A DNA stretch of 64,000 bases from an uncultured Thermoplasmata archaeon. Its GTDB lineage: Archaea; Thermoplasmatota; Thermoplasmata; RBG-16-68-12. The notes under the pieces were generated by a model that saw only the letters and a program-made list of their open reading frames with translations, was not told where the DNA came from and did no database searches. The stretch covers positions 448,001-512,000 of the forward strand of contig CAVYJM010000006.1 in assembly GCA_963768855.1 (NCBI GenBank). Reading direction: 5' to 3'. Numbering within the stretch: the first letter of the stretch is position 1; each line of letters opens with the position of its first letter. The position numbers and the translations under genes are program-made. This document shows positions 355-35,788 of this stretch, piece by piece.

Positions 355-427
355 GCCACCCTAGCTCAGTCGGTAGAGCAGCCGCCTTGTAAGCGGCAGG
401 TCGGGAGTTCAATTCTCCCGGGTGGCT
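355..427 (+). tRNA. tRNA-Thr(TGT), intronless, CCA not encoded
   Basis: Cloverleaf GCCACCC/GGGTGGC, D arm GCTC/GAGC, anticodon arm GCCGC-CTTGTAA-GCGGC, T arm GGGAG-TTCAATT-CTCCC. Confidence 0.97.
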
Positions 428-18401: not shown

Positions 18402-18563
18402 ATGGACGGCTAGCGTACCTAGGTCGCCGGCCCAAGCCCCGGTCAGGCCGGGGCGGGCTTCCCACGGGCTCGCGCACCGTAGTACCGCAGGGAACGTGGG
18501 CGGGCTTAACTTCCGGGTTCGGGATGGGACCGGGTGTATCCCCGCCGCTTTGGCCGTCAAACC
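18402..18563 (-). rRNA. rrf: 5S rRNA, stand-alone, with a 36-nt expansion segment
   Basis: Conserved CCCGGTCCCATCCCGAACCCGGAAGTTAAGCCCGCC core, helix I GACGGC/GCCGTC, loop E GGTAC/GGGAA; about 160 nt instead of about 122; ends approximate. Confidence 0.95.
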
Positions 18564-26849: not shown

Positions 26850-27060
26850 GTCGCCTCGGAAGCAACGGGGTCTATAAAACGTTGTGGTCGCCCTCGAGTG
26901 GCCCGATTTCCATTCGCGGACATGGATAATTATCGACGGTCCGTCCGGACGGTCAAAAGCCGGACGGGCCGGGCCGCCGGGGTTCAACCTCCGACCGCCG
27001 CAAAGTTTAACTACACCCGCGGTTTTGGCAACGGTCCGCATGTCGCCGCCGCTAGCCCGA

Positions 27061-27224
27061 GGGCCCGTAGCTCAGCTAGGTAGGATGGCGATCCAGCCGT
27101 CCCTAGAAAGAGCATCCGGCTTTTAACCGCTTTTCGTCAAGAAGAGCGGAAAGAAACCGGGTGGTCCGGGGTTCGAACGGGCCCCGCGGCCCGCGCCGGG
27201 TCCCCGAAAATCCCCGCGGGCCCG
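27061..27224 (+). tRNA. tRNA-Lys(TTT) with three introns (27082-27108, 27126-27155, 27178-27210)
   Basis: Removing the three segments gives a perfect 74-nt cloverleaf GGGCCCGTAGCTCAGCTAGGTAGAGCATCCGGCTTTTAACCGGGTGGTCCGGGGTTCGAATCCCCGCGGGCCCG; each intron has a 4-bp central helix and two 3-nt bulges. Confidence 0.95.
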
Positions 27225-27283
27225 TAGGGCTCCCGCGCGCGTGACATGCCAGGTCGAGAGAGGTCGCCCAGGGAGGAACCCCG

Positions 27284-27535
27284 TTGAGGTTCAATGTGCT
27301 GGAGCACCAGCTTGTACCAGAGCACCGCCTCGTCGCGGAGGAAGAGGCAGTGGAAGTCCTGAAGAAACTCCGGATCACGAAGGACCAGCTCCCCAAGATC
27401 CACCGGAGCGATCCCGTGATCCAGGTCCTCGAGCGAATCGAGGGCCCGATCGAGGAAGGGCGGATCATCAAGGTCACCCGCATGAGCGGGACCGCCGGAG
27501 TGTCCGTAGCGTATCGGTTGGTCATCGGGAGGTAG
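27284..27535 (+). CDS. rpoH: RNA polymerase subunit H (Rpo5)
   Basis: FNVLEHQLVPEH, LPKIHRSDPV, YRLVI; TTG start behind GGAGG. Confidence 0.97.
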   Translation: MRFNVLEHQLVPEHRLVAEEEAVEVLKKLRITKDQLPKIHRSDPVIQVLERIEGPIEEGRIIKVTRMSGTAGVSVAYRLVIGR

Positions 27536-27538
27536 AGC

Positions 27539-30500
27539 ATGCGAGAGCTGATTGACGCGTTCTTCAGAGAACGCTCTATTGTGAACCATCACATTGCGTC
27601 GTTCGACGACTTCCTTCCGACGATTGACAACCCGAGCTCCCGGATGCAGCGGATCGTCGACAACCTACGGTCCTCGCCGGAGGACGACCGCCGTGGGATC
27701 ATCAAGCTCGACGAAGACCGGACGGAAGGGGACGTGATCGAGATCCGGATCGGCCGGAAGCGCGACGAACGCGGGCGGATTGACCTCGAGGCCAAGCCGA
27801 CGATCACCCTCGGCCTCCCCGTGGTCAAGGAGGCCAACGGCGCGACGCACCCTCTGACCCCCATGGAGGCGCGCCTCCGGAACCTGAACTACACGGCCCC
27901 GATCTACCTCGACTTCACCGTCATCGAGAACGGGATCGAGCGCGAGCCCGAACGCGTCCACATCGGCAACCTGCCGATCATGGTGAAGTCGAAACGCTGC
28001 CTCCTCTACAAGGAGAACATGGAGACGGAGGGGGAACTGACCCTCGAGGAGTACAAGCGGAAGCTGATCGAGGCGGGGGAGGATCCCTACGACCCCGGCG
28101 GCTATTTCATCATCGGGGGCACGGAGCGCGCCCTGATCTCCCTCGAGGATCTCGCCCCGAACCGGGTGCTCGTCGAGTTCAACGAGCGCTACGGGCGGAA
28201 GGTCGAGGTCGCGAAGGTCTTCTCGCAGAAGGAAGGGTACCGCGCCCTCACGCTCATGGAGAAGCGGAAGGACGGCCAGCTCATCGTCTCCGTCCCGACC
28301 GCCTCCGGCCAGATCCCGCTGATCATCCTGATGAAGGCCCTGGGCATGGAGAAGGACGAGGAGATCTACAACGCGATCGTCTCCACGCCCGAGATGGCCA
28401 ACATCGTCTACGCGAATATCGAGGAGTGCCAGAACAAGAAGAACTACCCGCCCAACGGGATCTTCACGAAGGACGACGCAATCAACTACCTCGAGAAGAA
28501 GTTCGCCACGGGCCAGGCGAAGGAATACCGGATCAAGAAGGTCGAGTCGATCCTGGACCGTTCCCTGCTCCCCCACCTGGGCGACACCCGCGAGGACCGC
28601 ATCAAGAAGGCGATCTTCCTCGGCCGCGTCGCGCGCACGATCCTGGAGCTGTCCCTCGGCAAGCGGCGCGAGGACGACAAGGACCACTACGCTAACAAGC
28701 GACTCAAGCTCGCGGGGGACCTCATGGAAGACCTCTTCCGCGTCGCCTTCGCGAACGTGATCAAGGACCTGAAGTACCAGCTCGAGCGGTCCTACGCCCG
28801 GCACCGGGAGCTCAAGATCTCCTCTGCGATCCGCCCGGACCTCCTGACCCAGCGGCTCCTGCACGCCCTCGCGACGGGGAACTGGGTCGGCGGCCGCGCC
28901 GGTGTGAGCCAGCTCCTCGACCGCACGTCGAACATGTCCGCCCTGAGCCACCTCCGCCGGGTCACGTCCCCGCTCACCCGGTCCCAGCCCCACTTCGAGG
29001 CGCGGGACCTCCATCCGACCCAGTGGGGCCGGCTCTGCCCGAACGAGACCCCGGAAGGGCAGAACTGCGGCCTCGTGAAGAACTGCGCCCTCGTAATCGA
29101 CGTGTCGGAGGGGTTCCCGGAGGACGAGGTCAAGCTCCTCCTGTCCGACCTGGGCACGAAGCAGGTGAAGGGCCAGCAGACCCAGCTCACCCGCGTCTAC
29201 GTGAACGGCGACCTGGTCGGCCTGCATGAGGACCCGAAGATGCTCGTCGCGGAGATCCGCGAACGGCGCCGCTCCGGCCTCCTCAGCCACGAGGTCAACG
29301 TCCGCCTCGACGAGAACATGGGAGAGATCATCCTGAACTGCGACGAAGGCCGGATCCGCCGGCCCCTGCTCGTCGCGAAGGATGGCCACCTCGTCCTGTC
29401 GCGCAAGCACACGGAAGACCTCAAGCTCGGTCGCCTCCGCTTCTCCGACCTCGTCCGCAACGGCGTCGTCGAGTGGGTCGACGCGGAGGAGGAAGAGGAC
29501 ACGTTCATCGCGGTCTACCCCTACGACGTCCCGGCGCGCTGCAAGGAGTGCAAGCACCCTCTGAGCCGGAACGACGTCACGTGGGTCAACATGGGGAGCC
29601 GCGACGAGGACAATGAGCTCGAGTGCAAGTTCTGCCACAAGACGTTCCACGTCAAGGGCTACATCTCGAAGGAGACGACCCACCTCGAGGTCGACCCGAT
29701 GATCATCTTGGGCGTGGCCTCGGGGGTGATCCCGTACCCGGAGCACAACGCGTCCCCGCGGGTCACGATGGGCTCGGGCATGGCGAAGCAGTCGCTCGGC
29801 CTCGGCCAGAGCAACTACCGCCTCCGCCCCGACACGCGGAGCCACCTCCTGCACTACCCGCAGCAGCCGCTCGTTCAGACCGACTCGATGAAGTACGTCT
29901 CGTTCAACGAGCGTCCGGCGGGGCAGAACTTCGTCGTGGCCGTCCTCTCGTACCACGGATACAACATGGAGGACGCGATCGTCATGAACAAGGCGTCCAT
30001 CGACCGGGGCCTCGGCCGCTCCTCGTTCATGCGGACGTACCGGGCGGAGGAACGCCGCTACCCCGGCGGCCAGGAAGACCACTTCGAGATCCCCTCTCCC
30101 GACGTGCGCGGCGCGCGCGCCGACCTGTCCTACGCGAACCTGACGCCCGATGACGGGCTGATCTCCCCCGAGGTCAAGGTCATGGGCGGGGAGGTCCTCA
30201 TCGGGAAGACGAGCCCGCCGCGGTTCCTCGAGGAGGAGACGGACTTCCTGACGCCGCAGAAGCGGCGCGAGACCTCCGTCACGGTCCGCCACGGCGAGGA
30301 GGGCTGGGTCGACTCCGTCATGCTCACGGAGTCGGAGAACGGCTCGAAGCTCGCCAAGGTCAAGGTGCGCGACCTCCGTATCCCCGAGCTCGGCGACAAG
30401 TTCGCCTCGCGGCACGGGCAGAAGGGCGTTATCGGTCTCATCGCGGAACAGGTGGAGATGCCCTTCACGGCCAACGGCATCATTCCGGACCTCGTCATCA

Positions 30501-31128
30501 ACCCCCACGCCATCCCGTCGCGGATGACCGTCGCCCACGTCCTGGAGCAGATCGGCGGAAAGGTCGGCTCCATGGAGGGACGGCCGATCGACGGCACGCC
30601 CTTCAGCGGCGAGCGGGAAGAGGCGCTCCGGAAGGGGCTCGAGGAGAACGGGTTCCGGTCGAACGGCAAGGAGATCCTGTACGACGGAATGACGGGGCAG
30701 ATGATCCCCGCGGAGATCTTCGTCGGCGTCATCTACTACCAGAAGCTCCACCACATGGTCTCCGGGAAGCTGCATGTCCGGAGCCGCGGACCGGTACAGA
30801 TCCTGACGCGGCAGCCGACGGAAGGGCGGTCTCGCCAGGGCGGTCTGCGGTTCGGCGAGATGGAGCGCGACTGCCTCATCGGGCACGGCGCGGCGATGGT
30901 GATCAAGGATCGCCTGCTCGACGAGTCCGACGGGACGATCCAATACGTGTGCGGGAACCCGGAGTGCGGCCACTTCGCGATCAAGGACCGCAAGGGCAAC
31001 CTTCGCTGCCCCGTCTGCGAGAACACGTCCAAAATCTACCCCGTGCAGACATCCTATGCGTTCAAGCTGCTGCTGGACGAGCTCCTGTCCTTGGGCGTCG
31101 TCATGCGGCTCCAACTGGAGGACATGCG

Positions 31129-31132
<4 letters not shown>
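27539..31132 (+). CDS. rpoB: RNA polymerase subunit B (unsplit Rpo2)
   Basis: [24 protein letters not shown]-terminal Zn finger. Confidence 0.99.

Positions 31133-35788
<4,656 letters not shown>

What the first reader, a model, noticed from the sequence alone, without database searches (positions are those of the whole stretch)
27061..27224. tRNA-Lys(UUU) interrupted by three BHB introns (20/21, 37/38, 59/60)
Seen in sequence: intron 1 is 27082-27108 (central helix CUAG/CUAG, bulges GUA and AAA, 7-bp inner stem GGAUGGC/GCCGUCC). Intron 2 is 27126-27155 (CUUU/AAAG, 9-bp inner stem, strict BHB). Intron 3 is 27178-27210 (UUCG/CGAA, bulges AAC and AAU, closed by the T stem). Cutting each bulge 2|1 yields a perfect 74-nt tRNA. 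Established: most archaeal introns are single and at 37/38; triple-intron tRNAs are best known from Thermoproteales (Thermofilum, Pyrobaculum), and Thermoplasma has a homodimeric splicing endonuclease that prefers strict BHB. Inference: the D-loop motif is relaxed (A14-G15 unpaired before the D stem), so this lineage may have a broad-specificity EndA. No promoter is evident between the tRNA and rpoH, so splicing may also process the RNAP operon transcript.
Basis: partly seen in the sequence, partly recalled or inferred. Interest (0 to 1): 0.85.

Follow-up and report, generated by a model that had tools for sequence, protein, structure and literature searches.

The report
Three-intron lysine tRNA gene, Thermoplasmata
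This is a real, single-copy lysine tRNA gene cut into four pieces by three short protein-spliced introns, one in each loop of the cloverleaf; it is conserved across a soil archaeal order whose only splicing enzyme is of the type that papers describe as too strict for one of the three introns.

Summary
Window 27061-27224 (+) encodes tRNA-Lys(UUU) in four exons, with introns at 27082-27108 (20/21), 27126-27155 (37/38) and 27178-27210 (59/60). The 74-nt spliced product is called tRNA-Lys(ttt) by ARAGORN. It aligns without gaps, 65-69 of 74 identical, with intron-free tRNA-Lys(UUU) genes from other families of the same class. ARAGORN and Rfam both miss the unspliced gene.

It is the only Lys-UUU gene I found in the genome. 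All three introns sit at the same sites in 38 relatives of the order; the exons barely change while the introns vary. The D-loop intron alone matches 152 of 401 genomes drawn from the class.

Introns 2 and 3 are strict bulge-helix-bulge motifs. Intron 1 is relaxed, because its 3' bulge faces unpaired A14-G15.

The genome has one EndA. Co-transcription with rpoH is plausible. The leader-trailer helix holds no splice motif.

No mature RNA was seen: metatranscriptome contigs show only the unspliced form.

This scan has already reported the same gene type in other Thermoplasmata genomes. I found no paper that describes it.

The parts
26998..27013 (+). BRE/TATA-like promoter box (CCGCAAA + GTTTAACTA), about 50 nt upstream of the tRNA
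   Evidence: Invariant AAA.TTTA block in 15 genus members, while the sequence further upstream is unconserved. Promoter function is inferred, not shown.
27038..27060 (+). Conserved 5' leader that pairs with the 3' trailer
   Evidence: Nearly invariant in the genus. The MFE fold pairs 27032-27058 with 27227-27256.
27061..27081 (+). Exon 1: acceptor 5' strand, D stem 5' strand, D-loop up to nucleotide 20
27082..27108 (+). Intron 1 (27 nt, position 20/21), relaxed motif: 4-bp helix, two 3-nt bulges, 7-bp inner stem; the 3' bulge lies opposite unpaired A14-G15
   Evidence: The same site is occupied in 152 of 401 class genomes.
27109..27125 (+). Exon 2: A21, D stem 3' strand, anticodon stem 5' strand, anticodon loop up to A37 (anticodon TTT at 27122-27124)
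27126..27155 (+). Intron 2 (30 nt, 37/38), strict hBHBh' with a 9-bp inner stem
27156..27177 (+). Exon 3: A38, anticodon stem 3' strand, variable loop, T stem 5' strand, T-loop up to A59
27178..27210 (+). Intron 3 (33 nt, 59/60), strict hBHBh' with the T stem as outer helix; the inner stem is GC-rich and imperfect
27211..27224 (+). Exon 4: T60, T stem 3' strand, acceptor 3' strand, discriminator G73; no encoded CCA
27225..27256 (+). 3' trailer that pairs with the leader (GACATGC 27243-27249 with GCATGTC 27038-27044; GGGCT 27227-27231 with AGCCC 27054-27058)
   Evidence: One compensatory pair change (AGCCG/CGGCT) occurs in other genus members.
27284..27535 (+). rpoH (83 aa, TTG start, GGGAGG 27271-27276 as ribosome-binding site), followed by rpoB from 27539
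   Evidence: No A/T-rich box lies between 27225 and 27283.

Best explanation
A functional, single-copy tRNA-Lys(UUU) gene interrupted by three archaeal protein-spliced introns. Each intron sits at the equivalent place in one of the three hairpin loops, one nucleotide before the 3' strand of the stem (20/21, 37/38, 59/60). The primary transcript probably starts about 25 nt upstream, from the conserved BRE/TATA box, and may run on into rpoH-rpoB. In it, each intron folds into a hairpin whose base forms a 4-bp helix flanked by 3-nt bulges. The genome's only splicing endonuclease is an alpha'2-type EndA (374 aa). It would cut each bulge after its second nucleotide, and RtcB would join the four exons into a 74-nt tRNA. 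Shown here: the gene anatomy, the motifs, the conservation, the colinearity with intron-free homologues, and the presence and type of EndA and RtcB. Inferred: that splicing happens, that this loop-less alpha'2 EndA tolerates the relaxed 3' site of the D-loop intron, and the co-transcription with rpoH.
For: ARAGORN calls the spliced product tRNA-Lys(ttt). It is 69/74 and 65/74 identical, without gaps, to intron-free tRNA-Lys(UUU) genes of other families of the class. All three introns lie at the same sites in 38 relatives, with near-invariant exons and variable introns. RNAalifold recovers the three intron hairpins and central helices on its own, and so does the single-sequence MFE fold (z = -6.9). 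Inner-stem pairing is far above shuffles in 120 distinct precursors. No other Lys-UUU gene turned up among the 46 anticodons recovered from the genome. The same genome has six further genes with introns at 59/60 or 20/21. One EndA gene with two tandem units and one RtcB are present.
Against: No spliced RNA was observed. Contigs from four soil, peat and wetland metatranscriptome runs carry only the unspliced form and show no joints, and carry-over of DNA is not excluded. The D-loop motif is of the relaxed kind that A. fulgidus alpha'2 EndA failed to remove from M. kandleri pre-tRNA-Glu in vitro (PMC5829648), and this EndA has none of the inserts linked to broad specificity. The genome is a 93.6% complete, 7.7% contaminated MAG, so a second Lys-UUU gene cannot be fully excluded.
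Confidence: 0.9

Rival explanations
1. The lineage removes the relaxed D-loop intron with an EndA that has acquired broad specificity through a dedicated structural insert, as in Crenarchaeota (CSL) or ARMAN-2 (ASL).
For: Relaxed motifs are common in this genome. The D-loop 3' site faces two unpaired bases. Two 59/60 introns have an A.G mismatch in the central helix, and one opens its inner stem with C.C.
Against: There is a single EndA. Its catalytic unit aligns to M. jannaschii EndA with no insertion. A. pernix and ARMAN-2 show 7-11 extra residues at the loop site that this protein lacks. A family of the class with an uninterrupted D-loop has the same full-length EndA architecture (42% identity).
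Confidence: 0.07
2. Intron 1 is cut only in an alternative or later fold. For example, this could be after introns 2 and 3 are gone, or with help from the tRNA body, a protein or a modification. The alpha'2 enzyme would then never see a truly relaxed site.
For: Both 3-nt bulges and the 4-bp helix are intact, and only the outer helix is offset by A14-G15. RNAalifold finds a competing 5-bp register for the central helix. PMC5829648 raises folding, helper proteins and polyamines as explanations for the analogous M. kandleri intron.
Against: I found no alternative pairing that absorbs A14-G15. The offset holds in every relative with this intron in which I read the D-loop.
Confidence: 0.15
3. The locus is a decaying pseudogene, and Lys-UUU function is supplied elsewhere or by tRNA-Lys(CUU).
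For: AAA is a very rare codon here (2 AAA against 66 AAG in rpoB). One relative (G022) carries a copy that lacks exons 3 and 4.
Against: The exons are invariant or change only by compensation across an order, while the introns drift. The motifs are kept in 120 distinct precursors. No other TTT-anticodon gene was found.
Confidence: 0.03
4. EndA also releases the tRNA from a tRNA-rpoH co-transcript by cutting a bulge-helix-bulge in the leader-trailer helix, as it does in rRNA processing stems.
For: A conserved 24-bp leader-trailer helix flanks the tRNA. No promoter box lies between the tRNA and rpoH. RNA-library contigs bridge the two.
Against: The helix has only 1-2 nt bulges, all on one strand, and no 3-nt/4-bp/3-nt motif. 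RNase P and RNase Z sites lie in a 2x3 internal loop next to the acceptor stem, which suffices.
Confidence: 0.05

Closest known systems
Multiple-intron tRNA genes of Thermoproteales (Pyrobaculum, Thermofilum, Caldivirga; Sugahara et al. 2007/2008, as cited in PMC4090602)
   Same: Up to three bulge-helix-bulge introns in one tRNA gene, at canonical and non-canonical positions. The genes are invisible to simple tRNA finders and are spliced by EndA plus ligase.
   Different: Those hosts have (alpha-beta)2 EndA with the Crenarchaea-specific loop. This host is a Thermoplasmata-class euryarchaeon with a loop-less alpha'2 EndA. Here the three introns occupy the homologous site of each of the three loops.
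Methanopyrus kandleri pre-tRNA-Glu(UUC): HBh' intron at 20b/21 plus a canonical intron (PMC5829648)
   Same: A euryarchaeal tRNA with a relaxed D-loop intron at practically the same position plus a 37/38 intron. The host EndA lacks the specific loop. The best PDB match of this EndA is the fused M. kandleri enzyme 5x89 (E = 5e-37).
   Different: M. kandleri has separate alpha and beta subunits and a single such gene. Here the enzyme is one polypeptide, a third intron sits at 59/60, and the D-loop intron is spread over at least 40 genera.
ARMAN-2 (Ca. Micrarchaeum) tRNAs with 59/60 introns (PMC3239211, PMC5829648)
   Same: Introns at T-loop position 59/60, some of them relaxed.
   Different: ARMAN-2 uses a three-unit epsilon2 EndA with the ASL loop, which this protein lacks.
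[quoted passage not shown]
   Same: One intron in each of the three arms of a single tRNA.
   Different: It is a eukaryotic nuclear gene with a different endonuclease complex, and there is no evidence of common origin.

Membership tests
Archaeal protein-spliced (bulge-helix-bulge) tRNA intron | Two 3-nt bulges on opposite strands, separated by a 4-bp helix, with flanking helices h and h' | tested here: met
   Introns 2 and 3 have the full hBHBh' motif. Intron 1 has the helix, both bulges and h', but its outer helix is offset by two unpaired bases, so it is relaxed (BHL/HBh'-like).
Archaeal protein-spliced (bulge-helix-bulge) tRNA intron | Excision at the bulges restores a canonical cloverleaf tRNA | tested here: met
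   ARAGORN calls tRNA-Lys(ttt) on the 74-mer. The 74-mer is colinear with intron-free homologues.
Archaeal protein-spliced (bulge-helix-bulge) tRNA intron | The host encodes EndA and an RtcB-type ligase | tested here: met
   EndA is at G000:C17. RtcB is at G000:C6:311586-312893.
Archaeal protein-spliced (bulge-helix-bulge) tRNA intron | The spliced RNA exists in the cell | tested here: inconclusive
   Metatranscriptome contigs show only unspliced sequence and no joints. Contigs cannot show short modified tRNAs.
Functional tRNA-Lys(UUU) gene | Purifying selection on the exons, with compensatory change in the stems | tested here: met
   The exons are invariant in the genus. The anticodon-stem pair C-G changes to U-A in 7 of 25 sequences, while the introns vary in length and sequence.
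Functional tRNA-Lys(UUU) gene | The only gene for this anticodon in the genome | tested here: met
   46 anticodons were recovered and only one has TTT. The MAG is 93.6% complete, so this is not absolute.
Thermoproteales-type multi-intron tRNA system | Heterotetrameric (alpha-beta)2 EndA with the Crenarchaea-specific loop | tested here: not met
   There is one two-unit polypeptide, and it lacks the insertion seen in A. pernix 3p1z_B.
alpha'2 (homodimeric two-unit) EndA | Two tandem N-domain plus catalytic-domain units in one chain, with only the C-terminal unit catalytic | tested here: met
   Pfam finds 2x PF02778 and 2x PF01974. By eye, the Tyr and His of the triad are replaced in the first unit (inference). 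Dimerisation was not tested.
Broad-specificity EndA (L1/CSL, L2/ASL, L3 inserts) | An insert near the catalytic His (L1, L2) or in the C-terminal region (L3) of the catalytic unit | tested here: not met
   Residues 200-374 align with M. jannaschii 1a79 with no insertion in the query. The gaps fall in the query where A. pernix and ARMAN-2 have their loops.

The most novel reading that the evidence does not exclude
A plain alpha'2 splicing endonuclease with no CSL, ASL or L3 insert routinely removes relaxed, non-canonical and multiple introns in a large branch of Thermoplasmata. In this genome that would be 15 introns in 11 tRNA genes, 7 of them at 20/21 or 59/60. If so, the published rule that only loop-bearing (alpha-beta)2 and epsilon2 enzymes handle such introns would be wrong or incomplete. 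The D-loop intron of tRNA-Lys, present in at least 40 genera, would be a ready natural substrate to find the real determinant.
Probability: 0.4. Interest if true: 0.7.

Novelty: new member of a known kind. Interest (0 to 1): 0.5.

Why it matters
Reviews and recent structural papers (PMC4090602, PMC5829648, PMC12397907) state two things. First, euryarchaea with alpha4 or alpha'2 EndA carry few tRNA introns, one per gene, strict and at 37/38. Second, relaxed or non-canonical introns need an EndA with a specific loop. This gene contradicts the first statement and strains the second. It carries three introns and one relaxed motif, sits in a Thermoplasmata order with a loop-less alpha'2 enzyme, and has six similarly interrupted neighbours in the same genome.

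There is also a practical point. ARAGORN and Rfam miss the gene, so MAGs of this group will appear to lack tRNA-Lys(UUU) and several other tRNAs.

The class holds the same gene with no introns, with the D-loop intron alone, with two introns, and with three. That makes it a clean series for dating intron gain and loss.

Tried and rejected
- **RNA evidence for splicing.** One run search and one laying of four metatranscriptome runs gave only unspliced contigs and no joints. This is neither support nor refutation.
- **A splice motif in the leader-trailer helix.** None is present.
- **Shared sequence among the five 59/60 introns of this genome, as a sign of intron transposition.** They are all 31-33 nt, but MAFFT shows no convincing common sequence.
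Intron 3 has a 12-nt stretch one base away from the acceptor 3' strand. Other genus members do not keep this resemblance, so I treat it as GC-rich chance.
- **ARAGORN with long introns allowed.** This gave many false tRNAs inside coding sequence, and I discarded them after local re-analysis.
- **A link between EndA architecture and the D-loop intron.** A family with an uninterrupted D-loop has the same full-length EndA. Another has a shortened 292-aa Thermoplasma-like form. No simple correlation emerges from five genomes.
- **Literature searches for multi-intron tRNAs in Thermoplasmata or Methanomassiliicoccales.** Nothing was found. GtRNAdb and tRNAscan-SE output could not be consulted.

Full report
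**What is there**

The + strand at 27061-27224 reads as four exons of 21, 17, 22 and 14 nt, separated by introns of 27, 30 and 33 nt.

Joining the exons gives a 74-nt sequence that ARAGORN calls tRNA-Lys(ttt). It has a 7-bp acceptor stem, a 4-bp D stem, 5-bp anticodon and T stems, a TTCGAAT T-loop and discriminator G. ARAGORN finds nothing in the unspliced sequence, and neither does Rfam, either in the window or in the whole genome.

**Anatomy of the introns**

All three introns sit one nucleotide before the 3' strand of a hairpin stem, so they occupy the homologous site in the D, anticodon and T loops.

| Intron | Position | Central helix | Bulges | Inner stem | Outer helix | Class |
|---|---|---|---|---|---|---|
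| 1 | 20/21 | CTAG/CTAG | GT\|A, AA\|A | 7 bp | D stem, offset by unpaired A14-G15 | relaxed (HBh'/BHL-like) |
| 2 | 37/38 | CTTT/AAAG | TA\|A, AA\|A | 9 bp | anticodon stem | strict hBHBh' |
| 3 | 59/60 | TTCG/CGAA | AA\|C, AA\|T | GC-rich, imperfect | T stem | strict hBHBh' |

In intron 1 the D-loop holds two more nucleotides than the motif needs. The 3' bulge therefore lies in a 3x2 internal loop, which is what makes the motif relaxed.

An unconstrained MFE fold of 27028-27262 reproduces the three intron hairpins and the tRNA stems. Its energy is -128.6 kcal/mol, with z = -6.9 against shuffles.

**Comparative evidence**

The window is G000:C6:448001-512000 of a 2.87-Mb, 66% GC MAG.

- The precursor is found in 22 of 24 genomes of the same genus and in all 16 genomes drawn from six other families of the order.
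- A spliced alignment shows all three introns at the same sites in 38 of these loci. The exons are almost invariant, and the introns differ in length and sequence.
- RNAalifold on 25 precursors recovers the intron helices and shows compensatory changes, for example C-G to U-A in the anticodon stem in 7 sequences.
- A pattern scan of species-representative genomes found the D-loop-intron form in at least 119 species. Nearly all are titled Thermoplasmata, Thermoplasmatota, Methanomassiliicoccales or Methanobacteriota MAGs.
- Among 120 distinct precursors parsed from these loci, 46 have all three introns, 52 have D+T, 7 have D+A and 15 have D only. The set is conditional on intron 1.
- In that set the central helices have 4 of 4 pairs in nearly all cases. 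Inner-stem runs average 5.1, 5.2 and 2.4 bp, against about 0.5 in shuffles.
- In an even draw of 401 genomes of the class, the D-loop-intron pattern occurs in 152 genomes of 40 genera, including 57 of 63 genomes in the window's own order.
- In the same draw, 85 genomes carry the uninterrupted D-loop form. These belong to other families (44/48, 33/43, 6/7 and 2/3), and no family shows both forms.
- Intron-free genes from those families align to the spliced product without gaps, with 69/74 and 65/74 identities. This confirms all three junctions.

**The rest of the genome**

I anchored on acceptor and T-arm pairing, removed candidate introns and re-ran ARAGORN. Together with Rfam and plain ARAGORN, this recovered 46 anticodons and only one Lys-UUU gene.

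Eleven genes carry 15 introns:

- Three introns: Lys-UUU.
- Two introns (37/38 and 59/60): Lys-CUU, and one Met-CAU on contig C11.
- One intron at 59/60: a second CAU tRNA, and Leu-UAA.
- One intron at 20/21: Pro-GGG.
- One intron at 37/38: Gln-CUG, Ser-GGA, Tyr, Trp, and a third CAU tRNA.

Seven introns are therefore outside 37/38. Several are imperfect: two 59/60 introns have an A.G mismatch in the central helix, and one opens its inner stem with C.C. The earlier first-reader notes on this genome listed the same genes, and I re-derived each of them.

**The enzymes**

PF01974 hits the genome twice, both inside one ORF. The protein is 374 aa and has two N-domain plus catalytic-domain units, which is the alpha'2 layout.

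Its best solved relative is the artificially fused beta-alpha enzyme of M. kandleri (5x89, E = 5e-37). Thermoplasma acidophilum EndA matches only the last 84 residues.

The catalytic unit (residues 200-374) aligns with M. jannaschii EndA without any insertion. A. pernix and ARMAN-2 show extra residues at the CSL/ASL site where this protein has gaps. So the enzyme has none of the L1, L2 or L3 inserts that PMC5829648 and PMC12397907 link to broad specificity.

RtcB is present.

Five other genomes of the class gave no simple link between EndA form and the D-loop intron. Two families that carry the intron, and one with an uninterrupted D-loop, have the same full-length architecture. Another family with an uninterrupted D-loop has a 292-aa Thermoplasma-like form, and the fifth gave a two-piece match in a 395-aa frame.

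**Comparison with the literature**

PMC4090602 states that euryarchaea with alpha4 or alpha'2 enzymes have only one intron per gene, with a strict motif at the canonical position. PMC5829648 states that only (alpha-beta)2 and epsilon2 enzymes remove relaxed introns. [quoted passage not shown] The D-loop intron here is the closest analogue of that substrate.

Searches for tRNA introns in Thermoplasmata or Methanomassiliicoccales found no description. The comparative genomics paper on Methanomassiliicoccales does not mention them. I could not consult GtRNAdb or run tRNAscan-SE, so silent database listing remains possible.

This scan has reported the same two- and three-intron tRNA-Lys(UUU) genes in other Thermoplasmata genomes. 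My results agree with those reports and were obtained independently on this genome.

**Surroundings**

Upstream, 15 genus members share an invariant BRE/TATA-like block (window 26998-27013) and a nearly invariant leader (27038-27060). Sequence further upstream is not conserved, which argues against the 120-aa minus-strand ORF that ends at 27041 being a gene.

Downstream, CATGCCAGGT (27245-27254) and a GGGAGG ribosome-binding site precede the TTG start of rpoH at 27284. No A/T-rich box lies between the tRNA and rpoH.

The leader and trailer form an imperfect 24-bp helix that extends the acceptor stem. It shows one compensatory pair change in relatives. It has only 1-2 nt bulges on one strand and no splice motif.

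Contigs from RNA libraries of three different studies bridge part of this region: 27044-27324, 27148-27474 and 26996-27184. That fits a tRNA-rpoH co-transcript but does not exclude DNA carry-over. Release of the tRNA by RNase P and RNase Z is the simplest reading.

**Verdict**

The gene is almost certainly functional. The kind of element is known, but its host lineage and enzyme type are not the expected ones. Whether this plain alpha'2 EndA really cuts the relaxed D-loop site is open and directly testable.

Noticed in passing
window 27032-27058 with 27227-27256: A conserved leader-trailer helix of about 24 bp extends the acceptor stem of the pre-tRNA. Both strands are nearly invariant in the genus and one pair changes compensatorily. 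It has no splice motif, and its function is unknown.
   Followed up: partly
window 26998-27013 and 27225-27283: The only BRE/TATA-like box lies upstream of the tRNA, with none before rpoH. tRNA-Lys(UUU) directly precedes rpoH in many Thermoplasmatota loci, and RNA-library contigs bridge the two genes. The RNA polymerase operon may therefore be transcribed from the tRNA promoter.
   Followed up: partly
G000:C6:954852-954987, C11:139916-140051, C6:1074410-1074515, C6:924364-924479 (-), C6:930241-930354 (-): Five further tRNA genes of this genome carry introns at 59/60 or 20/21: Lys-CUU, a Met-CAU, a second CAU tRNA, Leu-UAA and Pro-GGG. Two of them carry two introns. All five 59/60 introns are 31-33 nt long.
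   Followed up: yes
L039 (G022:C174:8969-9459): In one genome of the genus the gene breaks off inside intron 2 and continues directly with the sequence that normally precedes rpoH, so exons 3 and 4 are missing. This is either a real deletion or an assembly collapse in a 74% complete MAG.
   Followed up: no
G000:C6:589458-589635: tRNA-Trp(CCA) has an intron of about 104 nt at 37/38 with GTGATGA and CTGA boxes. It resembles the box C/D guide RNA known from the tRNA-Trp introns of other euryarchaea.
   Followed up: no
window 27539-31132 and 30949-33918: AAA is almost unused in the RNA polymerase genes (2 AAA against 66 AAG, and 1 against 52). The triply interrupted tRNA therefore serves a very rare codon in this 66% GC genome.
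   Followed up: no
G000:C16:1434-1539 and C6:1074410-1074515: Identical copies of the CAU tRNA with a T-loop intron lie on two contigs. This fits the 7.7% contamination or duplication estimate of the MAG.
   Followed up: no
L165 (G064:C6:427157-427399) versus L159: EndA comes in two forms within the class. One is a full two-unit form of about 366-420 aa (this genome and three other families). The other is a 292-aa form that matches only the catalytic C-terminal domain, like Thermoplasma acidophilum EndA.
   Followed up: partly
window 18442-18561 (-) and 355-427 (+): A stand-alone 5S rRNA gene and an intron-free tRNA-Thr(UGU) are the only RNAs in the window that standard tools detect.
   Followed up: no
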